A stretch of DNA of 64,000 nt from Escherichia phage vB_EcoM_AYO145A. The DNA lies in sequence record KR014248; one strand, 5' to 3'. The translations under genes and the position numbers were made by a program. The notes under the pieces are model-generated. The model was not told the DNA's origin, made no database searches, and worked only from the letters and a program-made list of their open reading frames with translations. Shown piece after piece: positions 1,429-5,358 of the stretch (its first letter is position 1; each line of letters opens with the position of its first letter).

Positions 1429-2844
1429 ATGAGCGAATTATTTAAACATGCGCACCTTCATGCAGGTCGAACTGAAAATGGTGCTGTAAACCATACTTCA
1501 TCAATGTCTGCTCTTGTAGACTTTTACAAAGCTGCTGGTTCTAGCCGTAGCAATGTAGGAATCTTACCAGACCTGTTCTACAAAGCTTTGCGTGAGGATG
1601 TTGATGTTGCAGTTCGTATTTTGCTTCATATGCGAGATGTACGAGAAGGTATGGGTGAGCGTAAAGCTTTCCGAACTGTTTTACTTCAAGCGATTGAAGA
1701 TAAAGTTTTAGAGCCTACGCAGGTTCTTCGCATTATGGATAAGATTGCAGAGCTTGGTCGTTTTGATGACTTCAAAATCTTCGTGGGTACTCGTTTCGAG
1801 ACAGATGCCTTCAAACATTTAGAAGCAGCATTACTAGACCCTGCAACAGCAGGTTTGGCAGCTAAGTGGTTACCACGAGTCAAACCACGTCATAAGCAGT
1901 TTGTAAAACGTTTCTGCAAGTTTGCAAACTTGAGTGAGAAAGAGTACCGCACACTGTTGTCTGCACTATCTGATACAGTTGAACAAAAAATCTCTGCTAA
2001 TGAGTTTGGTAAGATTGACTACAGTAAGATTCCTTCACTTGCTGCTGCACGTTACCAAAAACTCTTTAACCGTAAAGATGGAGAACGCTACAAAGCTTAC
2101 ATCGAGTCACTCTCAAAAGGTGAGGCCAAGATTAACGCTGGTGCTGTTTACCCATACGATGTGATTAAATCTATCAAGTATGGTAATGCAGATGTTGCTA
2201 ATGAGCAGTGGAAAGCACTACCAAACTGGATGGTAGAAGGTGAAAACATCCTGTGTATGACTGATGTTTCAAGCTCAATGTCTTGGGTGAATCTTGGTTC
2301 AATCACTGCCCTTGATATTGGTGTATCCCTTGCCTTGTATGTAGCAGAACGCAATACAGGTTGTTTTAAGAATGAGTTAATGGTTTATTCAACAAACCCT
2401 CATTTCATCGAATTGAGTGGTGATTTACGAAACCGTCATCGTCAGATAATGCGTCATGTTGAATATGGCTCAACTAACTTACAAGCAGCTTTTGACCGTA
2501 TTCTTGAAATAGGCAAGAGAAACAACTTGACTCAGAAAGATATGCCAAGTAAGCTTATTATCTTCTCTGATATGGAGTTCAATCAGGTTGATGGAGCTAA
2601 CGGTCGTACAAACTTTGAAGCAATTCAGAGTAAGTACAAAAAAGCTGGATATGAGATGCCACAACTGGTATTCTGGTACTTAGCAAACCGTAATGGTACT
2701 TGCGAAGTATCTGTTAAGGATAATGGTGTAGCAATGGTATCAGGGTTCTCTCCAGCCACTTTAAAAGCTCTGCTTGGTGGTGAGAAGTTTGACCCAATCA
2801 GCGTAATGCTCAAAGCAGTAATGATTGACCGTTATATCTGGTAA
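1429..2844 (+). CDS. Ro60/Rsr-like protein (TROVE-like N-terminal region plus C-terminal von Willebrand A domain with MIDAS motif DVSSSMS)
   Basis: vWA MIDAS D-x-S-x-S at CMTDVSSSMS; C-terminal 200 aa align by eye to recalled human Ro60 C-terminus (LAVDVSASM / LIVCGMTSNGF...MCGFDTGALDVIRNF vs LCMTDVSSSM / LVFWYLANRNG...VSGFSPATLKALLGG); alternative is a related DUF2828-type vWA protein. Confidence 0.6.
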   Translation: MSELFKHAHLHAGRTENGAVNHTSSMSALVDFYKAAGSSRSNVGILPDLFYKALREDVDVAVRILLHMRDVREGMGERKAFRTVLLQAIEDKVLEPTQVLRIMDKIAELGRFDDFKIFVGTRFETDAFKHLEAALLDPATAGLAAKWLPRVKPRHKQFVKRFCKFANLSEKEYRTLLSALSDTVEQKISANEFGKIDYSKIPSLAAARYQKLFNRKDGERYKAYIESLSKGEAKINAGAVYPYDVIKSIKYGNADVANEQWKALPNWMVEGENILCMTDVSSSMSWVNLGSITALDIGVSLALYVAERNTGCFKNELMVYSTNPHFIELSGDLRNRHRQIMRHVEYGSTNLQAAFDRILEIGKRNNLTQKDMPSKLIIFSDMEFNQVDGANGRTNFEAIQSKYKKAGYEMPQLVFWYLANRNGTCEVSVKDNGVAMVSGFSPATLKALLGGEKFDPISVMLKAVMIDRYIW

Positions 2845-2862
2845 AAAGTTTTAAAAAGGGTA

Positions 2863-2891
2863 TTGACAATGTGTTTGATACCCTTTAATAT
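2863..2891 (+). promoter_or_regulatory. sigma70-like promoter (TTGACA 2863-2868, 17-nt spacer, TAATAT 2886-2891)
   Basis: Near-consensus hexamers preceded by A/T-rich UP-like tract. Confidence 0.55.
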
Positions 2892-2953
2892 GTTCTACAT
2901 AGAAACAAAATGAGAGCTTTTCTAAGATACTGAAAAATATTTTAAAAAAGTTC

Positions 2954-2982
2954 TTGACAACCACTAAAAAATAATGTTAAAG
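2954..2982 (+). promoter_or_regulatory. sigma70-like promoter candidate for tRNA array (TTGACA 2954-2959)
   Basis: Consensus -35; -10 is weak (TTAAAG at 17 nt). Confidence 0.35.
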
Positions 2983-3009
2983 TGGTTACATAGAGTTTGA
3001 AAAGTTTAT

Positions 3010-3086
3010 CTCTGTTTAGCTCAGCTTGGTAGAGCGTTCCGTTTGGGGCGGTAAGGCCGGAGGTTCAAGTCCTCCAACAGAGACCA
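3010..3086 (+). tRNA. tRNA-Pro (anticodon TGG), CCA encoded
   Basis: Acceptor CTCTGTT/AACAGAG, D-arm GCTCAGCTTGGTAGAGC, anticodon loop TTTGGGG, T-arm GGAGGTTCAAGTCCTCC. Confidence 0.8.
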
Positions 3087-3093
3087 AATTAAT

Positions 3094-3171
3094 GTTCCAG
3101 TAGACAAAATGGTAAAGTCACCACTCTTTCAAAGTGGATATTTGAGGGTTCAAATCCCTTCTGGAACGCCA
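3094..3171 (+). tRNA. tRNA-Glu (anticodon TTC), CCA encoded
   Basis: Acceptor GTTCCAG/CTGGAAC, anticodon stem CCACT/AGTGG loop CTTTCAA, T-arm GAGGGTTCAAATCCCTT. Confidence 0.75.
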
Positions 3172-3178
3172 GTTTTGA

Positions 3179-3251
3179 CAGAAGACCAATTACAGCAAAC
3201 TTAATCTTATTCATCTGACACGAAATCGGACAAAGAAGAGATTTGGTCTGG
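3179..3251 (+). ncRNA. stem-closed element U1 (5' CAGAAGACC ... GGTCTGG 3' closing helix with covarying extension; short Y RNA-like candidate)
   Basis: Conserved termini and internal TTACAGCAA box shared with elements at 3346, 3762, 3852; helix extension AGACCAA/TTGGTCT covaries between copies. Confidence 0.4.
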
Positions 3252-3262
3252 TCATTAAGAAT

Positions 3263-3339
3263 TGCGGGTATAGAGAAAGGGCGTCTCACATGTCTCATTA
3301 GCATGGTATCGGCAGGTTCGACTCCTGCACCCGCCTCCA
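3263..3339 (+). tRNA. tRNA with anticodon CAT (Met-type; possible initiator, position 1-72 mismatched, T at position 37)
   Basis: T-arm GCAGGTTCGACTCCTGC, acceptor 3' ACCCGCC plus CCA, anticodon stem CATGT/GCATG loop CTCATTA. Confidence 0.6.
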
Positions 3340-3345
3340 ATTTTG

Positions 3346-3405
3346 CAGAAGACCGTATGCAGCAATAAACTACTTTTTGCGGATAAAAGAAAAAACACGG
3401 TCTGG
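3346..3405 (+). ncRNA. stem-closed element U2 (CAGAAGACC ... GGTCTGG)
   Basis: Same conserved termini; extension AGACCG/CGGTCT. Confidence 0.4.
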
Positions 3406-3416
3406 CAATGTATTAA

Positions 3417-3493
3417 GGTTAGGAAGCACATAAGGTATGTGCGGTCGCCTGTTAAGCGAATGGCACAGGGTTCGAATCCCTGACTAACCGCCA
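3417..3493 (+). tRNA. tRNA-Asn (anticodon GTT), CCA encoded
   Basis: Acceptor GGTTAGG/ACTAACC, anticodon loop CTGTTAA, T-arm CAGGGTTCGAATCCCTG. Confidence 0.75.
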
Positions 3494-3502
3494 AATTTAA
3501 AT

Positions 3503-3590
3503 GTGTCGTTATCCCGTAGATGGTAGCGGTGGGGACTGTAAATCCCTTGTCATTGAGACTCGGTAGGTTCGACTCCTACACGGCACACCA
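3503..3590 (+). tRNA. tRNA-Tyr (anticodon GTA), long variable arm, CCA encoded
   Basis: Acceptor GTGTCGT/ACGGCAC, anticodon stem GGGGA/TCCCT loop CTGTAAA, T-arm GTAGGTTCGACTCCTAC. Confidence 0.75.
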
Positions 3591-3596
3591 AATAAA

Positions 3597-3674
3597 GGTT
3601 ATGTAGTTTAATCTGGTTAAAATACTCCCCTGTCACGGGAGATGATGAGGGTTCAAATCCCTTCGTAACCGCCA
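3597..3674 (+). tRNA. tRNA-Asp (anticodon GTC), CCA encoded
   Basis: Acceptor GGTTATG/CGTAACC, anticodon stem CTCCC/GGGAG loop CTGTCAC, T-arm GAGGGTTCAAATCCCTT. Confidence 0.8.
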
Positions 3675-3761
3675 AATTATAATAAGTATTCCAAGATGAT
3701 GTTTTGAGAGGGCTATTTAGCCCCTCCCTTAAAGAGTTCTTACGAGTATTCTTTAAAGGAG

Positions 3762-3838
3762 CAGAAGACCAAATTCAGCAAGTACGTATGATATTTTCAA
3801 GCCAATTTAATTTTGAAAAAATTTAAAACTTGGTCTGG
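3762..3838 (+). ncRNA. stem-closed element U3 (CAGAAGACC ... GGTCTGG)
   Basis: Same conserved termini; extension AGACCAA/TTGGTCT. Confidence 0.4.
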
Positions 3839-3851
3839 CTCAACAAATTTA

Positions 3852-3983
3852 CAGAAGACCGTTTACAGCAAAACTTAAACAATCTATTTCTCCGGTAAAG
3901 AAAAGGCGAAGGTTCGATTCCTTCACTCGGCAGATGTCGAGTTGGTGTAATGGTAGCACTTAAGATGATAAACAACGGTCTGG
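3852..3983 (+). ncRNA. tRNA-mimic ncRNA (YrlA/Y RNA-like): closing helix CAGAAGACCGTT/AACGGTCTGG enclosing T-arm, hairpin-closed acceptor stem and D-arm
   Basis: Order 5'->3': T-arm GAAGGTTCGATTCCTTC (3908-3924), ACTCGGC-AGAT-GTCGAGT hairpin (3925-3942), D-arm GTGTAATGGTAGCAC (3945-3959); no anticodon arm; ends pair. Confidence 0.5.
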
Positions 3984-3985
3984 TA

Positions 3986-4126
3986 ATTATCTTTGTAGAT
4001 AAGTTATTAAGCTTACCTGTGAGTATGCGACCACAAAGGGTGAAAGGGTAAATTCTAGATTTAAACCCAACAAGGCACATCGCTACAGACCTTAAGCAAG
4101 TCTGGGTAGCTTATCTACAAAGATAA
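3986..4126. repeat. two inverted copies of 16-bp palindrome TTATCTTTGTAGATAA (3986-4001 and 4111-4126) flanking a mini CAGACC..GTCTGG hairpin (4082-4110)
   Basis: Exact reverse-complement copies read from sequence; half-site TTATCTACA resembles a DnaA-box-like 9-mer. Confidence 0.4.
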
Positions 4127-4133
4127 TTTTAAT

Positions 4134-4209
4134 GGAAGTGTAGCAGAATGGTGATGCGGCAGACTTTTAATCTGACAGGCGATGGGTTCGAATCCCTCCA
4201 CTTCTACCA
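4134..4209 (+). tRNA. tRNA-Lys (anticodon TTT), CCA encoded
   Basis: Acceptor GGAAGTG/CACTTCT, anticodon loop CTTTTAA, T-arm GGGTTCGAATCCC; paralogue of tRNA at 5366. Confidence 0.65.
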
Positions 4210-4213
4210 ATAT

Positions 4214-4290
4214 GGTTCAGTCGCAGATAAGGTAATGCAGGGGTCTCATAAGCCCTATGAATGTGGGTTCGATTCCCATCTGAACCTCCA
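4214..4290 (+). tRNA. tRNA-Met or Ile2 (anticodon CAT), CCA encoded
   Basis: Acceptor GGTTCAG/CTGAACC, anticodon stem GGGGT/GCCCT loop CTCATAA, T-arm GTGGGTTCGATTCCCAT. Confidence 0.75.
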
Positions 4291-4291
4291 A

Positions 4292-4367
4292 GCTGGTATA
4301 GTTAAGAAGGTTATAACACTCCCCTGATAAGGGAACATCGGTGGTTCGATTCCACCTACCAGTACCA
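4292..4367 (+). tRNA. tRNA-Ile (anticodon GAT), CCA encoded
   Basis: Acceptor GCTGGTA/TACCAGT, anticodon stem CTCCC/GGGAA loop CTGATAA, T-arm GGTGGTTCGATTCCACC. Confidence 0.75.
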
Positions 4368-4382
4368 ATTTCAATAAAGTTG

Positions 4383-4411
4383 TTGACATTGAGATGTGAC
4401 TACTTTATAGT
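4383..4411 (+). promoter_or_regulatory. sigma70-like promoter internal to tRNA array (TTGACA 4383-4388, 17-nt spacer, TATAGT 4406-4411)
   Basis: Near-consensus hexamers and spacing. Confidence 0.55.
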
Positions 4412-4615
4412 AACCTTAGTTTTCGTTGCGTAGCGTCTATTTTGCAAATTTAAAATAAATGCAAACGACAATGTTTTTCTGGCAGTAGCTTGATAGGCTA
4501 AACACCAGTGAGGTCTTCCAATCCCTCATCAAAGAATTTGGCGTACTCGCCCACGGTATGATTAATAAGGTGGGCATCTTTAAGGGCTTTCTAAGAGAGT
4601 CTTTAAAGATAATTA

Positions 4616-4697
4616 CGGGGCGTATCTCAGCGGTCTTCTAAACCGCCGTTAACCGAGTAAGTGGAGTATGCGGGTTCGAGTCCTGCCGCCTCGACCA
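4616..4697 (+). tRNA. atypical tRNA-like gene (anticodon-like hairpin GCGGT-CTTCTAA-ACCGC, TCT = Arg; no clear D-arm, 23-nt extra region), CCA encoded
   Basis: Clear T-arm GCGGGTTCGAGTCCTGC, acceptor CGGGGCG/CGCCTCG; internal architecture non-canonical. Confidence 0.4.
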
Positions 4698-4839
4698 AAT
4701 AGTTAGCAGATTACTTAGACGGTCTTAGCGGGTCTTCCTGTAGGGAGGTGGTCTGTATCTCATGTTTTCCAGAACATGTAAATAATCTGAGAAGGGGCTT
4801 TACAGTGTTGAGATAATACGGTAAGCTTCGAATTATAGT

Positions 4840-4922
4840 GTGGGACGATGTTAAGACTCTAAGGCATGAGCAACGGCTTCCAACACCGTTTCAAAGGGGT
4901 TCAACTCCTCCGTCCCATGCCA
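4840..4922 (+). tRNA. atypical tRNA-like gene (about 80 nt; hairpin AACGG-CTTCCAACA-CCGTT, anticodon uncertain, possibly TCC), CCA encoded
   Basis: T-arm AGGGGTTCAACTCCTCC, acceptor GTGGGAC/GTCCCAT; D region not resolvable by eye. Confidence 0.4.
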
Positions 4923-4935
4923 AAGTCTTATTAGG

Positions 4936-5023
4936 GGTAGGTAGCGGCTAATGGTAGCCAAACTGTCTTGAAAACAGTTGCCACTGTAGAGATACGGTGA
5001 GGGTTCGACTCCTTTACTTACCG
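4936..5023 (+). tRNA. tRNA-Ser (anticodon TGA), long variable arm
   Basis: Acceptor GGTAGGT/ACTTACC, D-arm CGGCTAATGGTAGCC, anticodon stem ACTGT/ACAGT loop CTTGAAA, 20-nt variable arm, T-arm GAGGGTTCGACTCCTTT. Confidence 0.75.
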
Positions 5024-5280
5024 CCTAATAAGATTTAAAGCCAAGCTTCATTCGGATGTTGCTTTGGTATACCGCGTGTATTGTTGTACGCACTGATAAA
5101 GCACCTAGTAGGTGTCACGGAGAAGAGATAATATCAAGCTCTCCAAAGGTTCTAGTCACCGGATTAAACAAGACTATGCAAAGACCTTTTTAGGTCTTTT
5201 TAGAGGGCTTCTAAGGTTATTACAGCTTGTTGTGGAACCTTGTTGCTTAGGTTCTTAGAAGTTCTCTAAAAAGACTTAAT

Positions 5281-5358
5281 GGGAGATTGACGGTAATTGG
5301 TAAACCTATCTCGCTTAGAACGAGATGTTTGAGGGTTCGAATCCCTTGTCTCCTACCA
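5281..5358 (+). tRNA. tRNA with Leu anticodon TAG but class-I (short variable arm) architecture, CCA encoded
   Basis: Acceptor GGGAGAT/GTCTCCT, anticodon stem TCTCG/CGAGA loop CTTAGAA, T-arm GAGGGTTCGAATCCCTT, A73. Confidence 0.6.

What the first reader, a model, noticed from the sequence alone, without database searches (positions are those of the whole stretch)
3179..4110. Family of four to five elements sharing a conserved, covarying closing helix (CAGAAGACC ... GGTCTGG)
Elements at 3179-3251, 3346-3405, 3762-3838 and 3852-3983 all begin with (A/G)CAGAAGACC and end with GGTCTGG. The helix extension covaries between copies (AGACCAA/TTGGTCT, AGACCG/CGGTCT, AGACCGTT/AACGGTCT), and each has an internal T(T/G)(A/C)CAGCAA box just inside the 5' arm. 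A collapsed version (CAGACC-TTAAGCAA-GTCTGG) sits at 4086-4105. Covariation argues for a selected base-paired structure. Three copies are short (60-77 nt) and lack the tRNA-like domain, so they could be short Y RNA-like RNAs sharing one protein-binding helix, or processing signals for the polycistronic tRNA precursor.
Basis: seen in the sequence. Interest (0 to 1): 0.8.

Follow-up and report, generated by a model that had tools for sequence, protein, structure and literature searches.

The report
Phage small RNAs partnering Ro60-like protein
A Felix O1-type phage hides five structured small RNAs among its tRNA genes, all carrying one conserved "handle"; the same handle sits beside a Ro60-shaped protein gene in very different phages and closely matches the unexplained Class I RNAs of social amoebae.

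Summary
CAGAAGACC…GGTCTGG closes four elements (3176-3254, 3343-3408, 3759-3841, 3849-3986). A miniature copy (4086-4105) lies inside a fifth structured RNA (3985-4128).

The helix is 4 bp, then an AGA/G internal loop, then 7 bp. It covaries among paralogs and 30 orthologous loci. Every single-sided change gives G·U on the + strand only, which points to RNA.

The upstream ORF (1429-2844; DUF2828 + vWA) has a confident Ro60 fold. Element 4 carries a capped, permuted tRNA-like body in the YrlA order (T arm, closed acceptor hairpin, D arm).

The conserved core is (A)AG, a 6-bp variable stem, UUACAGCAA, a variable interior, the stem complement and CUG. It recurs in tandem beside DUF2828 genes in Klebsiella, Aeromonas, Campylobacter, Enterococcus, Listeria, Staphylococcus, Bacillus, Sinorhizobium and Cronobacter phages: 38 hits on the gene strand, 1 antisense, 2.2 in shuffles. 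It is absent from T5 and T4-like tRNA arrays.

Rfam holds no such family. The only weak matches are to Dictyostelium Class I RNAs, which have the same architecture.

Best reading: Y-RNA-like partner RNAs of a Ro60-like phage protein. Binding and expression are untested. This is a new variant of a known kind, with a possible and unexpected link to amoebae.

The parts
1429..2844 (+). Gene for a Ro60-fold protein (DUF2828 + DUF7788/vWA; PHROG 850 'RNA-binding protein'). It corresponds to gp130 of phage Bas63.
   Evidence: Pfam and PHROG hits. The AlphaFold model built with a 56-sequence alignment has pLDDT 89.7. The top 11 Foldseek PDB hits are all Ro60/Rsr/phage phiLo Ro60, with E 1.5e-8 to 7e-7 and TM up to 0.64 over the full length.
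2863..2983 (+). Two sigma-70-like promoters (2863-2891, 2954-2983) ahead of the tRNA/sRNA array.
   Evidence: Consensus scan, 10/12 matches each. The next strong promoter is at 4383, and no + strand terminator lies in between. This is a pattern match only.
3176..3254 (+). Element 1 (79 nt): closing module plus an internal 5-bp/7-nt-loop hairpin (3214-3230). It lies between tRNA-Glu and tRNA-Met.
3343..3408 (+). Element 2 (66 nt): closing module plus a weak 5-bp/7-nt-loop hairpin. It lies between tRNA-Met and tRNA-Asn.
   Evidence: The outer stem switches UUGC/GCAA <-> UUAC/GUAA among orthologs. Weak Rfam Class I hit at 3351-3404, 18 bits.
3759..3841 (+). Element 3 (83 nt): closing module plus an 8-bp hairpin.
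   Evidence: Outer stem variants are GAGC/GCUC, GGGC/GCUC (G.U), GGAGC/GUUCC and UGGGGC/GUCCUA.
3849..3986 (+). Element 4 (138 nt): closing module enclosing a permuted, capped tRNA-like body. Its parts are an anticodon-arm-like hairpin (3887-3903), a T arm (3908-3924), a closed acceptor-like hairpin (3925-3942) and a D arm (3945-3959).
   Evidence: RNAalifold on 17 orthologs gives 27 pairs. Three acceptor-stem pairs carry compensatory changes. Partial Rfam tRNA hit at 3875-3925, 22 bits. No ARAGORN call.
3985..4128 (+). Element 5 (~144 nt): a structured RNA closed by a long covarying stem. It contains the miniature module CAGAC-CUUAAGCAA-GUCUG at 4086-4104.
   Evidence: RNAalifold on 19 orthologs gives 29 pairs, 6 of them with compensatory changes.

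Best explanation
These are five phage-encoded small non-coding RNAs, and I read them as the RNA partners of the Ro60-like protein encoded just upstream (1429-2844). In other words, a Y-RNA-like RNP system of a new type.

Shown:
- Each RNA is closed by the same covarying terminal helix.
- Next to the helix lies a single-stranded box, (U/A)U(A/G/U)CAGCAA.
- The protein has the Ro60 ring + vWA fold.
- Element 4 has a YrlA-like tRNA-shaped body.
- The module AAG / 6-bp stem / UUACAGCAA ... stem / CUG is genomically coupled to this protein family in many unrelated phages.

Inferred:
- The RNAs are transcribed with the first block of tRNAs from the promoters at about 2863/2954.
- They are released by the tRNA-processing enzymes (RNase P at the next tRNA's 5' end, 3' trimming of the previous one).
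- The closing helix protects them from exonucleases.
- The constant module (stem + box + 3' CUG) is the handle that docks each RNA on the protein.
- The variable interior is the effector part that brings in, or decoys, host factors. In element 4 it is a capped tRNA mimic; in elements 1-2 it is an anticodon-arm-like 5-bp/7-nt hairpin.
- By analogy with bacterial Rsr-Y RNA-PNPase and Thermus phage phiLo Ro60-Yrl, and given that the Bas63 ortholog gp130 counters the Ppl defence, the RNP most likely modulates host RNA decay or tRNA-directed defence during infection.
For: RNA on the + strand:
- 99.5% pairing and covariation score 0.469 against 0.183 in shuffles, 0/500.
- Helix boundaries are sharp.
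- All one-sided changes give G.U/U.G on the + strand: AGGCC, AGACU, AGACCGA, GGGC, GUUCC.
- Indels of 1, 2 and 4 nt among orthologs rule out the overlapping minus-strand ORF 3823-4080.

Protein:
- Ro60 fold.

Y RNA likeness:
- All elements lie 332-1284 nt downstream of the gene on the same strand, matching the adjacency rule of Chen 2014.
- Element 4 has T arm, closed acceptor and D arm.
- In Klebsiella phage KP13-16 the same module encloses tRNA-like bodies that Rfam's YrlA model detects below threshold, at 39.7 and 25.8 bits.
- A YrlA-like piece (35.2 bits) lies near the gene in Sinorhizobium phage phiM19.

Linkage:
- Strict module scan of 16 distant DUF2828 loci (172 kb): 38 hits on the gene strand, 1 antisense, shuffles mean 2.2 and maximum 5.
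- Copies are mostly tandem and directly abut the gene.
- None on the tRNA strand in T5; only a chance hit inside a CDS in the T4-like tRNA region.

Context:
- RNA ligase/RtcB, CCA-adding enzyme and tRNA arrays recur near the gene.

Literature:
- Bas63 gp130 is Ro60-like, counters Ppl, and its authors only guessed that 'some tRNA genes are possibly Y RNAs'.
- phiLo Ro60 binds adjacent Yrl RNAs and host PNPase.
Against: - There are no expression or end-mapping data, and no binding data.
- The canonical Ro-binding motif (GNCGAAN0-1G / CGAA) is absent.
- Rfam YrlA gives no hit in this window even at E<=10.
- The protein is not a Pfam TROVE member, and the sequence-profile match to Ro60 is not significant (E 0.84).
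- The module was not found within 5 kb of the gene in Mycobacterium phage Crossroads, Aeromonas phage Ah1, Serratia phage BF and four related Gram-positive-like contigs.
- The module definition was derived by me from the data. The strand, shuffle and T5/T4 controls are the only guard against that.
- A covariance model built from truncated modules did not recover the elements.
Confidence: 0.65

Rival explanations
1. The elements are processing or insulator hairpins of the polycistronic tRNA precursor. On this view they are spacers that guide RNase cleavage or stop tRNAs misfolding, with no life of their own.
For: They sit 4-8 nt from flanking tRNAs inside one probable transcription unit. Covarying extensions would keep each hairpin from mispairing with its neighbours.
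Against: The same module occurs as tandem arrays next to the DUF2828 gene with no tRNAs between the copies, in Listeria LMSP-25, Staphylococcus S-CoN_Ph8 and Aeromonas LAh_6. Most tRNA junctions in this window have no such element. The T5 and T4-like arrays lack it. A conserved single-stranded 9-nt box and a complete tRNA-like body are not needed for a spacer.
Confidence: 0.1
2. They are free-standing tRNA or anticodon-arm mimics: decoys or sponges for host anticodon nucleases or tRNA enzymes, or base-pairing riboregulators. They would act without the Ro60-like protein, and the shared module would serve only stability or another host factor.
For: Element 4 is a capped tRNA mimic. Interior hairpins are enriched for 7-nt loops (9 of 26 against 7% in shuffles), some of the form YU-NNN-RA. 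The loop of element 1 is hypervariable among near-identical phages.
Against: This does not explain why the module tracks the DUF2828 gene so tightly across phyla. It also leaves unexplained a Ro60-fold protein, whose known ligands are exactly such stem-closed RNAs, sitting next to them.
Confidence: 0.12
3. They are cis-regulatory sites on the Ro60-like gene's own transcript, i.e. autoregulatory operators in its 5' or 3' UTR, rather than separate RNAs.
For: Copies lie immediately upstream of the gene (Listeria, Campylobacter, Aeromonas, Enterococcus, Bacillus phages) or immediately downstream (this phage, Klebsiella and Staphylococcus phages).
Against: In this window two promoters separate the gene from the elements, and tRNAs are interleaved with them. 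Two to seven copies with different interiors, some with tRNA-like bodies, are hard to explain as operators. The architecturally matching Dictyostelium RNAs are abundant free RNAs.
Confidence: 0.06
4. They are DNA-level repeats, such as recombination or homing-endonuclease sites or REP-like elements, with no RNA function.
For: Homing endonuclease genes insert nearby in some relatives. One relative has a deletion between T-arm repeats.
Against: All one-sided substitutions keep pairing only as G.U on the + strand, and would be A.C on the other strand. Compensatory changes occur at 5 of 11 pairs. Across phages the strand bias is 38:1.
Confidence: 0.02

Closest known systems
Bacterial and mycobacteriophage YrlA/YrlB Y RNAs with Rsr (Ro60) (Chen et al. 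2014, PMC4201824; Rfam RF02553)
   Same: The RNAs are encoded within about 1.3 kb of a Ro60-fold gene on the same strand. The 5' and 3' ends form the closing stem. There is one long RNA with a tRNA-like body in the order T arm, closed acceptor stem, D arm, plus shorter RNAs lacking it (like YrlB). The wider context links to tRNA and RNA repair.
   Different: The protein is DUF2828+vWA, not a Pfam TROVE protein. The GNCGAAN0-1G motif is replaced by AAG-stem-UUACAGCAA...CUG. There is no Rfam YrlA hit in this window. There are five RNAs, interleaved with tRNA genes. Element 4 also keeps an anticodon-arm-like hairpin.
Thermus phage phiLo Ro60 with Yrl1/Yrl2 (PMC12135203; PDB 9KOP, 9L5Y)
   Same: A phage-encoded Ro60 ring protein with adjacent phage-encoded partner RNAs. 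phiLo Ro60 is among the top structural matches. It is the experimental precedent for binding and for recruiting host PNPase.
   Different: phiLo uses a canonical TROVE Ro60 and CGAA-motif Y-like RNAs located upstream of the gene. Nothing has been tested for the present system.
Dictyostelid Class I RNAs (Rfam RF01414; Kjellin et al. 2021, PMC7919456)
   Same: The architecture matches almost point for point. AAG start; an invariant 5' G paired with the C of a 3' CUG(U); a 6-bp stem that varies in sequence but covaries; the box (C)CUUACAGCAA directly after the 5' strand; an A-rich tract before the 3' strand; about 50-65 nt; a variable interior; multi-copy and clustered. RF01414 is the only non-tRNA Rfam family that repeatedly hits the phage elements, 9 hits of 12.8-29.6 bits, all exactly on elements. 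Positions I did not select on also agree.
   Different: Class I RNAs are eukaryotic nuclear genes with a DUSE promoter. The box is offset from the stem by 4 nt, not 3. All scores are below Rfam's gathering score of 41.5. Their known direct binder is an RRM protein (Rnp1A/CIBP). No link to a Ro60-like protein has been reported, and I could not check whether Dictyostelium encodes a DUF2828 protein.
Stable RNAs of unknown function inside phage T5/T4 tRNA clusters (e.g. T5 RNA1 and RNA2, annotated 'tRNA-like stable RNA')
   Same: Small stable RNAs, some tRNA-like, co-located and presumably co-processed with phage tRNAs (annotation seen).
   Different: The T5 and T4-like regions contain no copy of the module on the tRNA strand, and those phages are not among the DUF2828 hits.

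Membership tests
Y RNA / Ro60 RNP (functional class) | Encoded next to, and on the same strand as, a Ro60 protein gene (within 4 kb; Chen 2014) | tested here: met
   The elements lie 332-1284 nt downstream of ORF 1429-2844, on the same strand. The ORF's model matches Ro60 structures over its full length, E 1.5e-8, TM 0.64. Caveat: Pfam TROVE is not matched; the hits are DUF2828/DUF7788/vWA.
Y RNA / Ro60 RNP (functional class) | 5' and 3' ends pair into a conserved stem that carries the protein-binding site, with a variable loop/effector region | tested here: met
Y RNA / Ro60 RNP (functional class) | Conserved Ro-binding sequence (GGUCCGA in animals; GNCGAAN0-1G / CGAA in bacteria and phage phiLo) | tested here: not met
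   The 5' strand reads (A/G)CAGAAGACC. It shares only GAAG with the bacterial motif.
Y RNA / Ro60 RNP (functional class) | Physical binding to the Ro60 protein | not testable with these tools
   Needs RIP/EMSA.
YrlA (Rfam RF02553) | Reaches the Rfam gathering score (69 bits) | tested here: not met
   No YrlA hit in window 2850-5300 or 3840-3995 at E<=10. Related elements in Klebsiella phage KP13-16 score 39.7 and 25.8 bits.
YrlA (Rfam RF02553) | tRNA-like domain in the order T arm, acceptor-like stem-loop, D arm | tested here: met
   Element 4: T arm GAAGG-UUCGAUU-CCUUC, a covarying closed acceptor hairpin, and a D arm GUGU-AAUGGNA-GCAC.
Dictyostelid Class I RNA (Rfam RF01414) | Short (6-bp) terminal stem with covariation; invariant 5' G paired to the C of 3' CUG(U); AAG at the start | tested here: met
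   Window..AGA-AG-ACCNN ... NNGGUC-UG-G, that is AAG + GACCNN/NNGGUC + UG. Distant phage copies: A at -1 in >=90%, and UG invariant by selection.
Dictyostelid Class I RNA (Rfam RF01414) | 11-nt motif CCUUACAGCAA adjacent to the 5' stem strand | tested here: inconclusive
   Elements 1 and 4 have UUACAGCAA (9/11). Elements 2 and 3 have AUGCAGCAA and AUUCAGCAA. The offset from the stem is 3 nt, not 4.
Dictyostelid Class I RNA (Rfam RF01414) | Reaches the Rfam gathering score (41.5 bits) | tested here: not met
   Window elements score 18.0 and 12.8 bits. The best relative (Aeromonas phage LAh_6) scores 29.6 bits.
Dictyostelid Class I RNA (Rfam RF01414) | Eukaryotic gene with a DUSE promoter ~60 nt upstream | tested here: not met
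   This is a phage genome with sigma-70-like promoters.
tRNA | Detected by ARAGORN, or by Rfam RF00005 at >=29 bits; open acceptor end | tested here: not met
   No ARAGORN call. Element 4 gets a partial 22-bit match only. Its acceptor stem is closed by a loop, and the arm order is permuted.

The most novel reading that the evidence does not exclude
The phage RNAs and the Class I RNAs of dictyostelid social amoebae are one RNA family, or at least one protein-binding module: AAG / 6-bp stem / UUACAGCAA ... CUG. Its cognate ligand would be the DUF2828-type Ro60-like protein. Class I RNAs would then be the 'Y RNAs' of a second, so far unrecognised branch of the Ro60 world that spans phages of Gram-negative and Gram-positive bacteria and eukaryotes. 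The uncharacterised Class I pull-down protein DDB_G0281243, or another Dictyostelium DUF2828/vWA protein, would be the partner.
Probability: 0.3. Interest if true: 0.9.

Novelty: new variant of a known kind. Interest (0 to 1): 0.8.

Why it matters
Ro60-Y RNA particles are known in animals, some bacteria and a few phages. Here a second, much more widespread phage protein family has the Ro60 fold: 708 phage records in the phage collection searched carry it. It gets a candidate RNA partner with a simple, searchable signature.

- It turns the published guess that "some tRNA genes may be Y RNAs" in Bas63 into five concrete, testable genes.
- It explains several spurious "hypothetical protein" or "tRNA pseudogene" annotations.
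- It gives a handle on how the Bas63 ortholog gp130 defeats the Ppl defence.
- It suggests that tRNA and anticodon-arm mimicry is part of the phage's tool kit in tRNA-centred conflicts.

If the match to Dictyostelium Class I RNAs is homology, it would give those abundant RNAs a candidate protein partner and an evolutionary origin. Their function has been unknown since their first description (Aspegren et al. 2004).

Tried and rejected
- Sequence searches of the ORF and of a 56-sequence profile against PDB gave nothing significant. Ro60 appeared only at E 0.84 in the vWA part.
- The single-sequence AlphaFold model was unusable, pLDDT 45. The alignment-based model was needed.
- Rfam at gathering thresholds finds only tRNAs. 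YrlA is not found in the window even in a 156-nt search.
- BLASTN 'distant' with the region was swamped by tRNA matches, so I switched to protein-anchored loci.
- MAFFT on full-length short elements misaligned the 3' ends.
- A covariance model built from truncated pseudo-sequences (R1) could not bridge the long variable interiors. It scored real elements at 13-14 bits, among chance hits. I dropped the CM route and relied on an explicit scanner with strand, shuffle and T5/T4 controls.
- The weak R1 hit at 5211-5244 (UUACAGC hairpin) lacks the CAGCAA box, so I do not count it.
- I could not establish whether Dictyostelium has a DUF2828 protein or what DDB_G0281243 is. The literature and supplement searches were empty, and the AlphaFold-DB fold library was unavailable.
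- The minus-strand ORFs over the region (3089-3340, 3255-3494, 3823-4080) were rejected as genes. They overlap tRNAs, and frameshifting indels among orthologs break them.
Full report
**What the window is.** The region is 99.5% identical to Felix O1-type phages (Felixounavirus; Escherichia phage LTH02, LF82P5, UAB_Phi87). It lies at the start of a 25-tRNA array. Public records annotate the stretch only as tRNAs, a 'tRNA pseudogene' or hypothetical proteins.

**Checking the observation.**
- CAGAAGACC occurs four times in 700 nt, with 0.5 expected in the whole window. Each copy is followed by GGTCTGG.
- Folding each element pairs its ends. The structure is an outer stem of 3-4 bp that differs in every copy, an asymmetric internal loop (5' AGA, 3' G), and an inner stem AGACC(N2-3)/(N2-3)GGUCU.
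- All four have (U/A)U(A/G/U)CAGCAA directly after the 5' strand.
- The elements are 3176-3254, 3343-3408, 3759-3841 and 3849-3986.

**Covariation, without circularity.**
- I collected 30 related loci through the neighbouring protein: GenBank phages, IMG/VR and Logan contigs, with protein identity from 99% down to 63%. I located elements by the 5' half only.
- Every locus has four, except one with three and one natural deletion mutant.
- The seven inner and four outer pairs are 97-100% paired, and the flanking positions are not.
- On 18 distinct modules the covariation score is 0.469, against 0.183 in shuffles (0/500) and at most 0.123 for slid registers. Five of 11 pairs carry double changes.
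- Every single-sided change makes G.U on the + strand. This points to an RNA read from the + strand, not a DNA repeat.
- The AGA-AGA duplication allows two nearly equivalent registers. The invariant bases cannot tell them apart.

**Element 4 and a fifth RNA.**
- RNAalifold on 17 orthologs of element 4 predicts the closing helix, a T arm (GAAGG-UUCGAUU-CCUUC), a closed acceptor-like hairpin, and a D arm.
- The acceptor-like hairpin has three sequence versions that all pair: CUCGGC/GUCGAG, CACG/CGUG, CCCUUC/GAAGGG.
- A 5-bp/7-nt hairpin precedes the T arm, in the place of the anticodon arm. So element 4 is a circularly permuted, capped tRNA shape, in the YrlA arrangement described by Chen et al. 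2014.
- The 'collapsed copy' at 4086-4105 is a conserved, covarying mini-hairpin whose loop is the box (CUUAAGCAA). It lies inside a separate ~144-nt RNA (3985-4128), closed by a long stem with six compensatory pairs.

**The neighbouring protein.**
- ORF 1429-2844 hits DUF2828, DUF7788 and weakly vWA, and PHROG 850 'RNA-binding protein'.
- Sequence searches do not reach Ro60.
- A confident model (pLDDT 89.7) has Ro60 proteins as its top 11 PDB matches: Xenopus, human, Deinococcus Rsr and Thermus phage phiLo, with E about 1e-8 over the full length.
- A 2024 preprint noted the same fold for the Bas63 ortholog gp130. It showed that gp130 counters the Ppl defence, and speculated that some neighbouring 'tRNA genes' might be Y RNAs, without identifying any.

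**Beyond this phage.**
- tblastn finds the protein in 708 phage records from many host phyla.
- In Klebsiella phage KP13-16 (51% identity) the gene is followed by five elements. Each is GAAG-NN (or GUAGUU) + (U/A)U(A/U)CAGCAA ... complementary stem + UG. Three of them enclose T/acceptor/D bodies, two of which Rfam's YrlA model detects below threshold.
- From this I generalised the module to: 6-bp stem, 3 nt, CAGCAA, 20-260 nt, complementary stem, UG.
- A strict scan found tandem copies abutting the gene in these phages:
  - Aeromonas LAh_6: six copies
  - Campylobacter F368: two
  - Enterococcus VRE9_3: four
  - Listeria LMSP-25: three
  - Staphylococcus S-CoN_Ph8: three
  - Bacillus PJN02: three
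  - an IMG/VR contig
  - a Logan contig
  - Cronobacter LPCS28
  - Sinorhizobium phiM19, with a one-base shift
- Over 16 distant loci (172 kb) there are 38 hits on the gene strand and 1 antisense. Dinucleotide shuffles give a mean of 2.2 and a maximum of 5.
- Outside the locus the window has only chance hits. The T5 and T4-like tRNA regions have none on the tRNA strand.
- I did not find the module near the gene in a mycobacteriophage, two jumbo or T4-like phages and one contig group.
- RNA ligase/RtcB, CCA-adding enzyme, phosphoesterase and tRNAs recur around the gene. This echoes the bacterial rsr-yrlBA-rtcBA operon.

**An unexpected resemblance.**
- Besides tRNA-related models and YrlA, the only Rfam family that keeps hitting these elements is RF01414, the Class I RNAs of Dictyostelium. 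There are nine hits of 12.8-29.6 bits. All are end-to-end, all lie exactly on scanner-defined elements, and none lies elsewhere.
- The published definition of Class I RNAs reads like a description of the phage module: AAG start; an invariant 5' G paired to the C of a 3' CUGU; a 6-bp covarying stem; an adjacent CCUUACAGCAA; about 60 nt; a variable rest; clustered genes.
- Of 34 distinct curated D. discoideum sequences, 27 meet my module definition, with the box one base further from the stem.
- Positions I never selected on agree. Phages read C/U/U/A before the box and A/U after it, at 50-84%. Dictyostelium reads C/U/U/A and A/U at 68-100%.
- All scores are below Rfam's threshold.
- The known direct binder of Class I RNA is an RRM protein. 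One of the four pull-down proteins, DDB_G0281243, is uncharacterised.
- I could not check whether dictyostelids encode a DUF2828 protein. I therefore treat homology as a live but unproven possibility.

**Mechanism.**
- Shown: structured + strand RNAs with a shared closing module; a Ro60-fold neighbour; a YrlA-like tRNA body; tight genomic coupling of module and protein across phages.
- Inferred:
  - The RNAs are co-transcribed with the tRNAs from the promoters at 2863/2954.
  - They are released by tRNA-processing enzymes.
  - The module docks them on the protein, as Y RNA stems dock on Ro60.
  - The variable interiors recruit or decoy host factors.
- Interior hairpins are enriched for 7-nt loops, 9 of 26 against 7% in shuffles. 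Several have anticodon-loop form, and the loop of element 1 is hypervariable among near-identical phages. This fits tRNA-centred conflict, but it is only a hint.
- Precedent comes from Rsr-Y RNA-PNPase and from phage phiLo Ro60-Yrl-PNPase.

**Classification.** By function and arrangement this is a Y-RNA-like system. By the defining sequence motif and the Rfam models it is a member of neither YrlA nor Class I. I found no description of this RNA family in Rfam 15 or in the searchable literature. I rate it a new variant of a known kind.

Noticed in passing
window 3214-3230 (loop 3219-3225): The internal 5-bp/7-nt-loop hairpin of element 1 has a hypervariable loop among phages that are otherwise ~98-99% identical here: CACGAAA, AGGUAAA, AAGUUAA, AGCUAAA, AGAUAAA. 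This suggests diversifying selection on an anticodon-loop-like site.
   Followed up: partly
short elements in window, L002, L040, L041, L049, L050: Variable interiors are enriched for hairpins with 7-nt loops, 9 of 26 against 7% in shuffles, mostly on 5-bp stems. Several loops read like canonical anticodon loops: CUCAUAA, CUGAUAA, UUUUAAA, and CUGGUAA in element 4 orthologs.
   Followed up: partly
L015:6950-7101 (IMG/VR contig): A natural deletion joins the T arm of element 4 to the T arm of the downstream tRNA-Lys. It removes the 3' half of element 4, all of element 5 and most of that tRNA.
   Followed up: no
L001:5744-5835 and L040:3140-3193: The 17-nt interior UUCUUCGCUUAUAGAAA is identical between element 1 of a Suspvirus and one element of Aeromonas phage LAh_6, whose proteins are only 43% identical. 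A UUUC-NNGCAUA-GAAA hairpin is shared by Mooglevirus element 1 and a Klebsiella phage element. So interiors form conserved subtypes.
   Followed up: no
window 4616-4694: A tRNA-like gene that Rfam scores at 31.7 bits (just above threshold) and ARAGORN misses. It has a UCU (Arg) anticodon loop and an unusually long insertion. Relatives annotate tRNA-Arg(TCT) here.
   Followed up: no
window 4370-4615, 4700-4935, 5026-5280: Long tRNA-free gaps inside the array behind a strong promoter (4383-4411). They give weak hits to pieces of tmRNA models and contain a long hairpin at 5186-5285. These may be further unannotated structured RNAs.
   Followed up: no
L048 (Listeria phage LMSP-25) 941-1039 and 3428-3979: A drum RNA (50.2 bits, above threshold) and a ROOL-like RNA (88.5 bits, just below threshold) lie in the same tRNA-rich block as the three elements, the DUF2828 gene and an RtcB ligase. 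The block is a hub of non-coding RNAs of unknown function.
   Followed up: no
L049:6471-6818, L002:6358-6486, L040:3875-4000: GenBank records annotate tiny hypothetical CDSs, or an over-extended start of the RNA-binding protein gene, on top of these RNA elements. These are probably mis-annotations.
   Followed up: no
L051 (phage T5 tRNA region): T5's annotated 'stable RNAs with unknown functions' (RNA1, RNA2, RNAI, RNAIII, RNAIV, RNAX) sit among its tRNAs in the same way but lack the module. They form a parallel, still unexplained class.
   Followed up: partly
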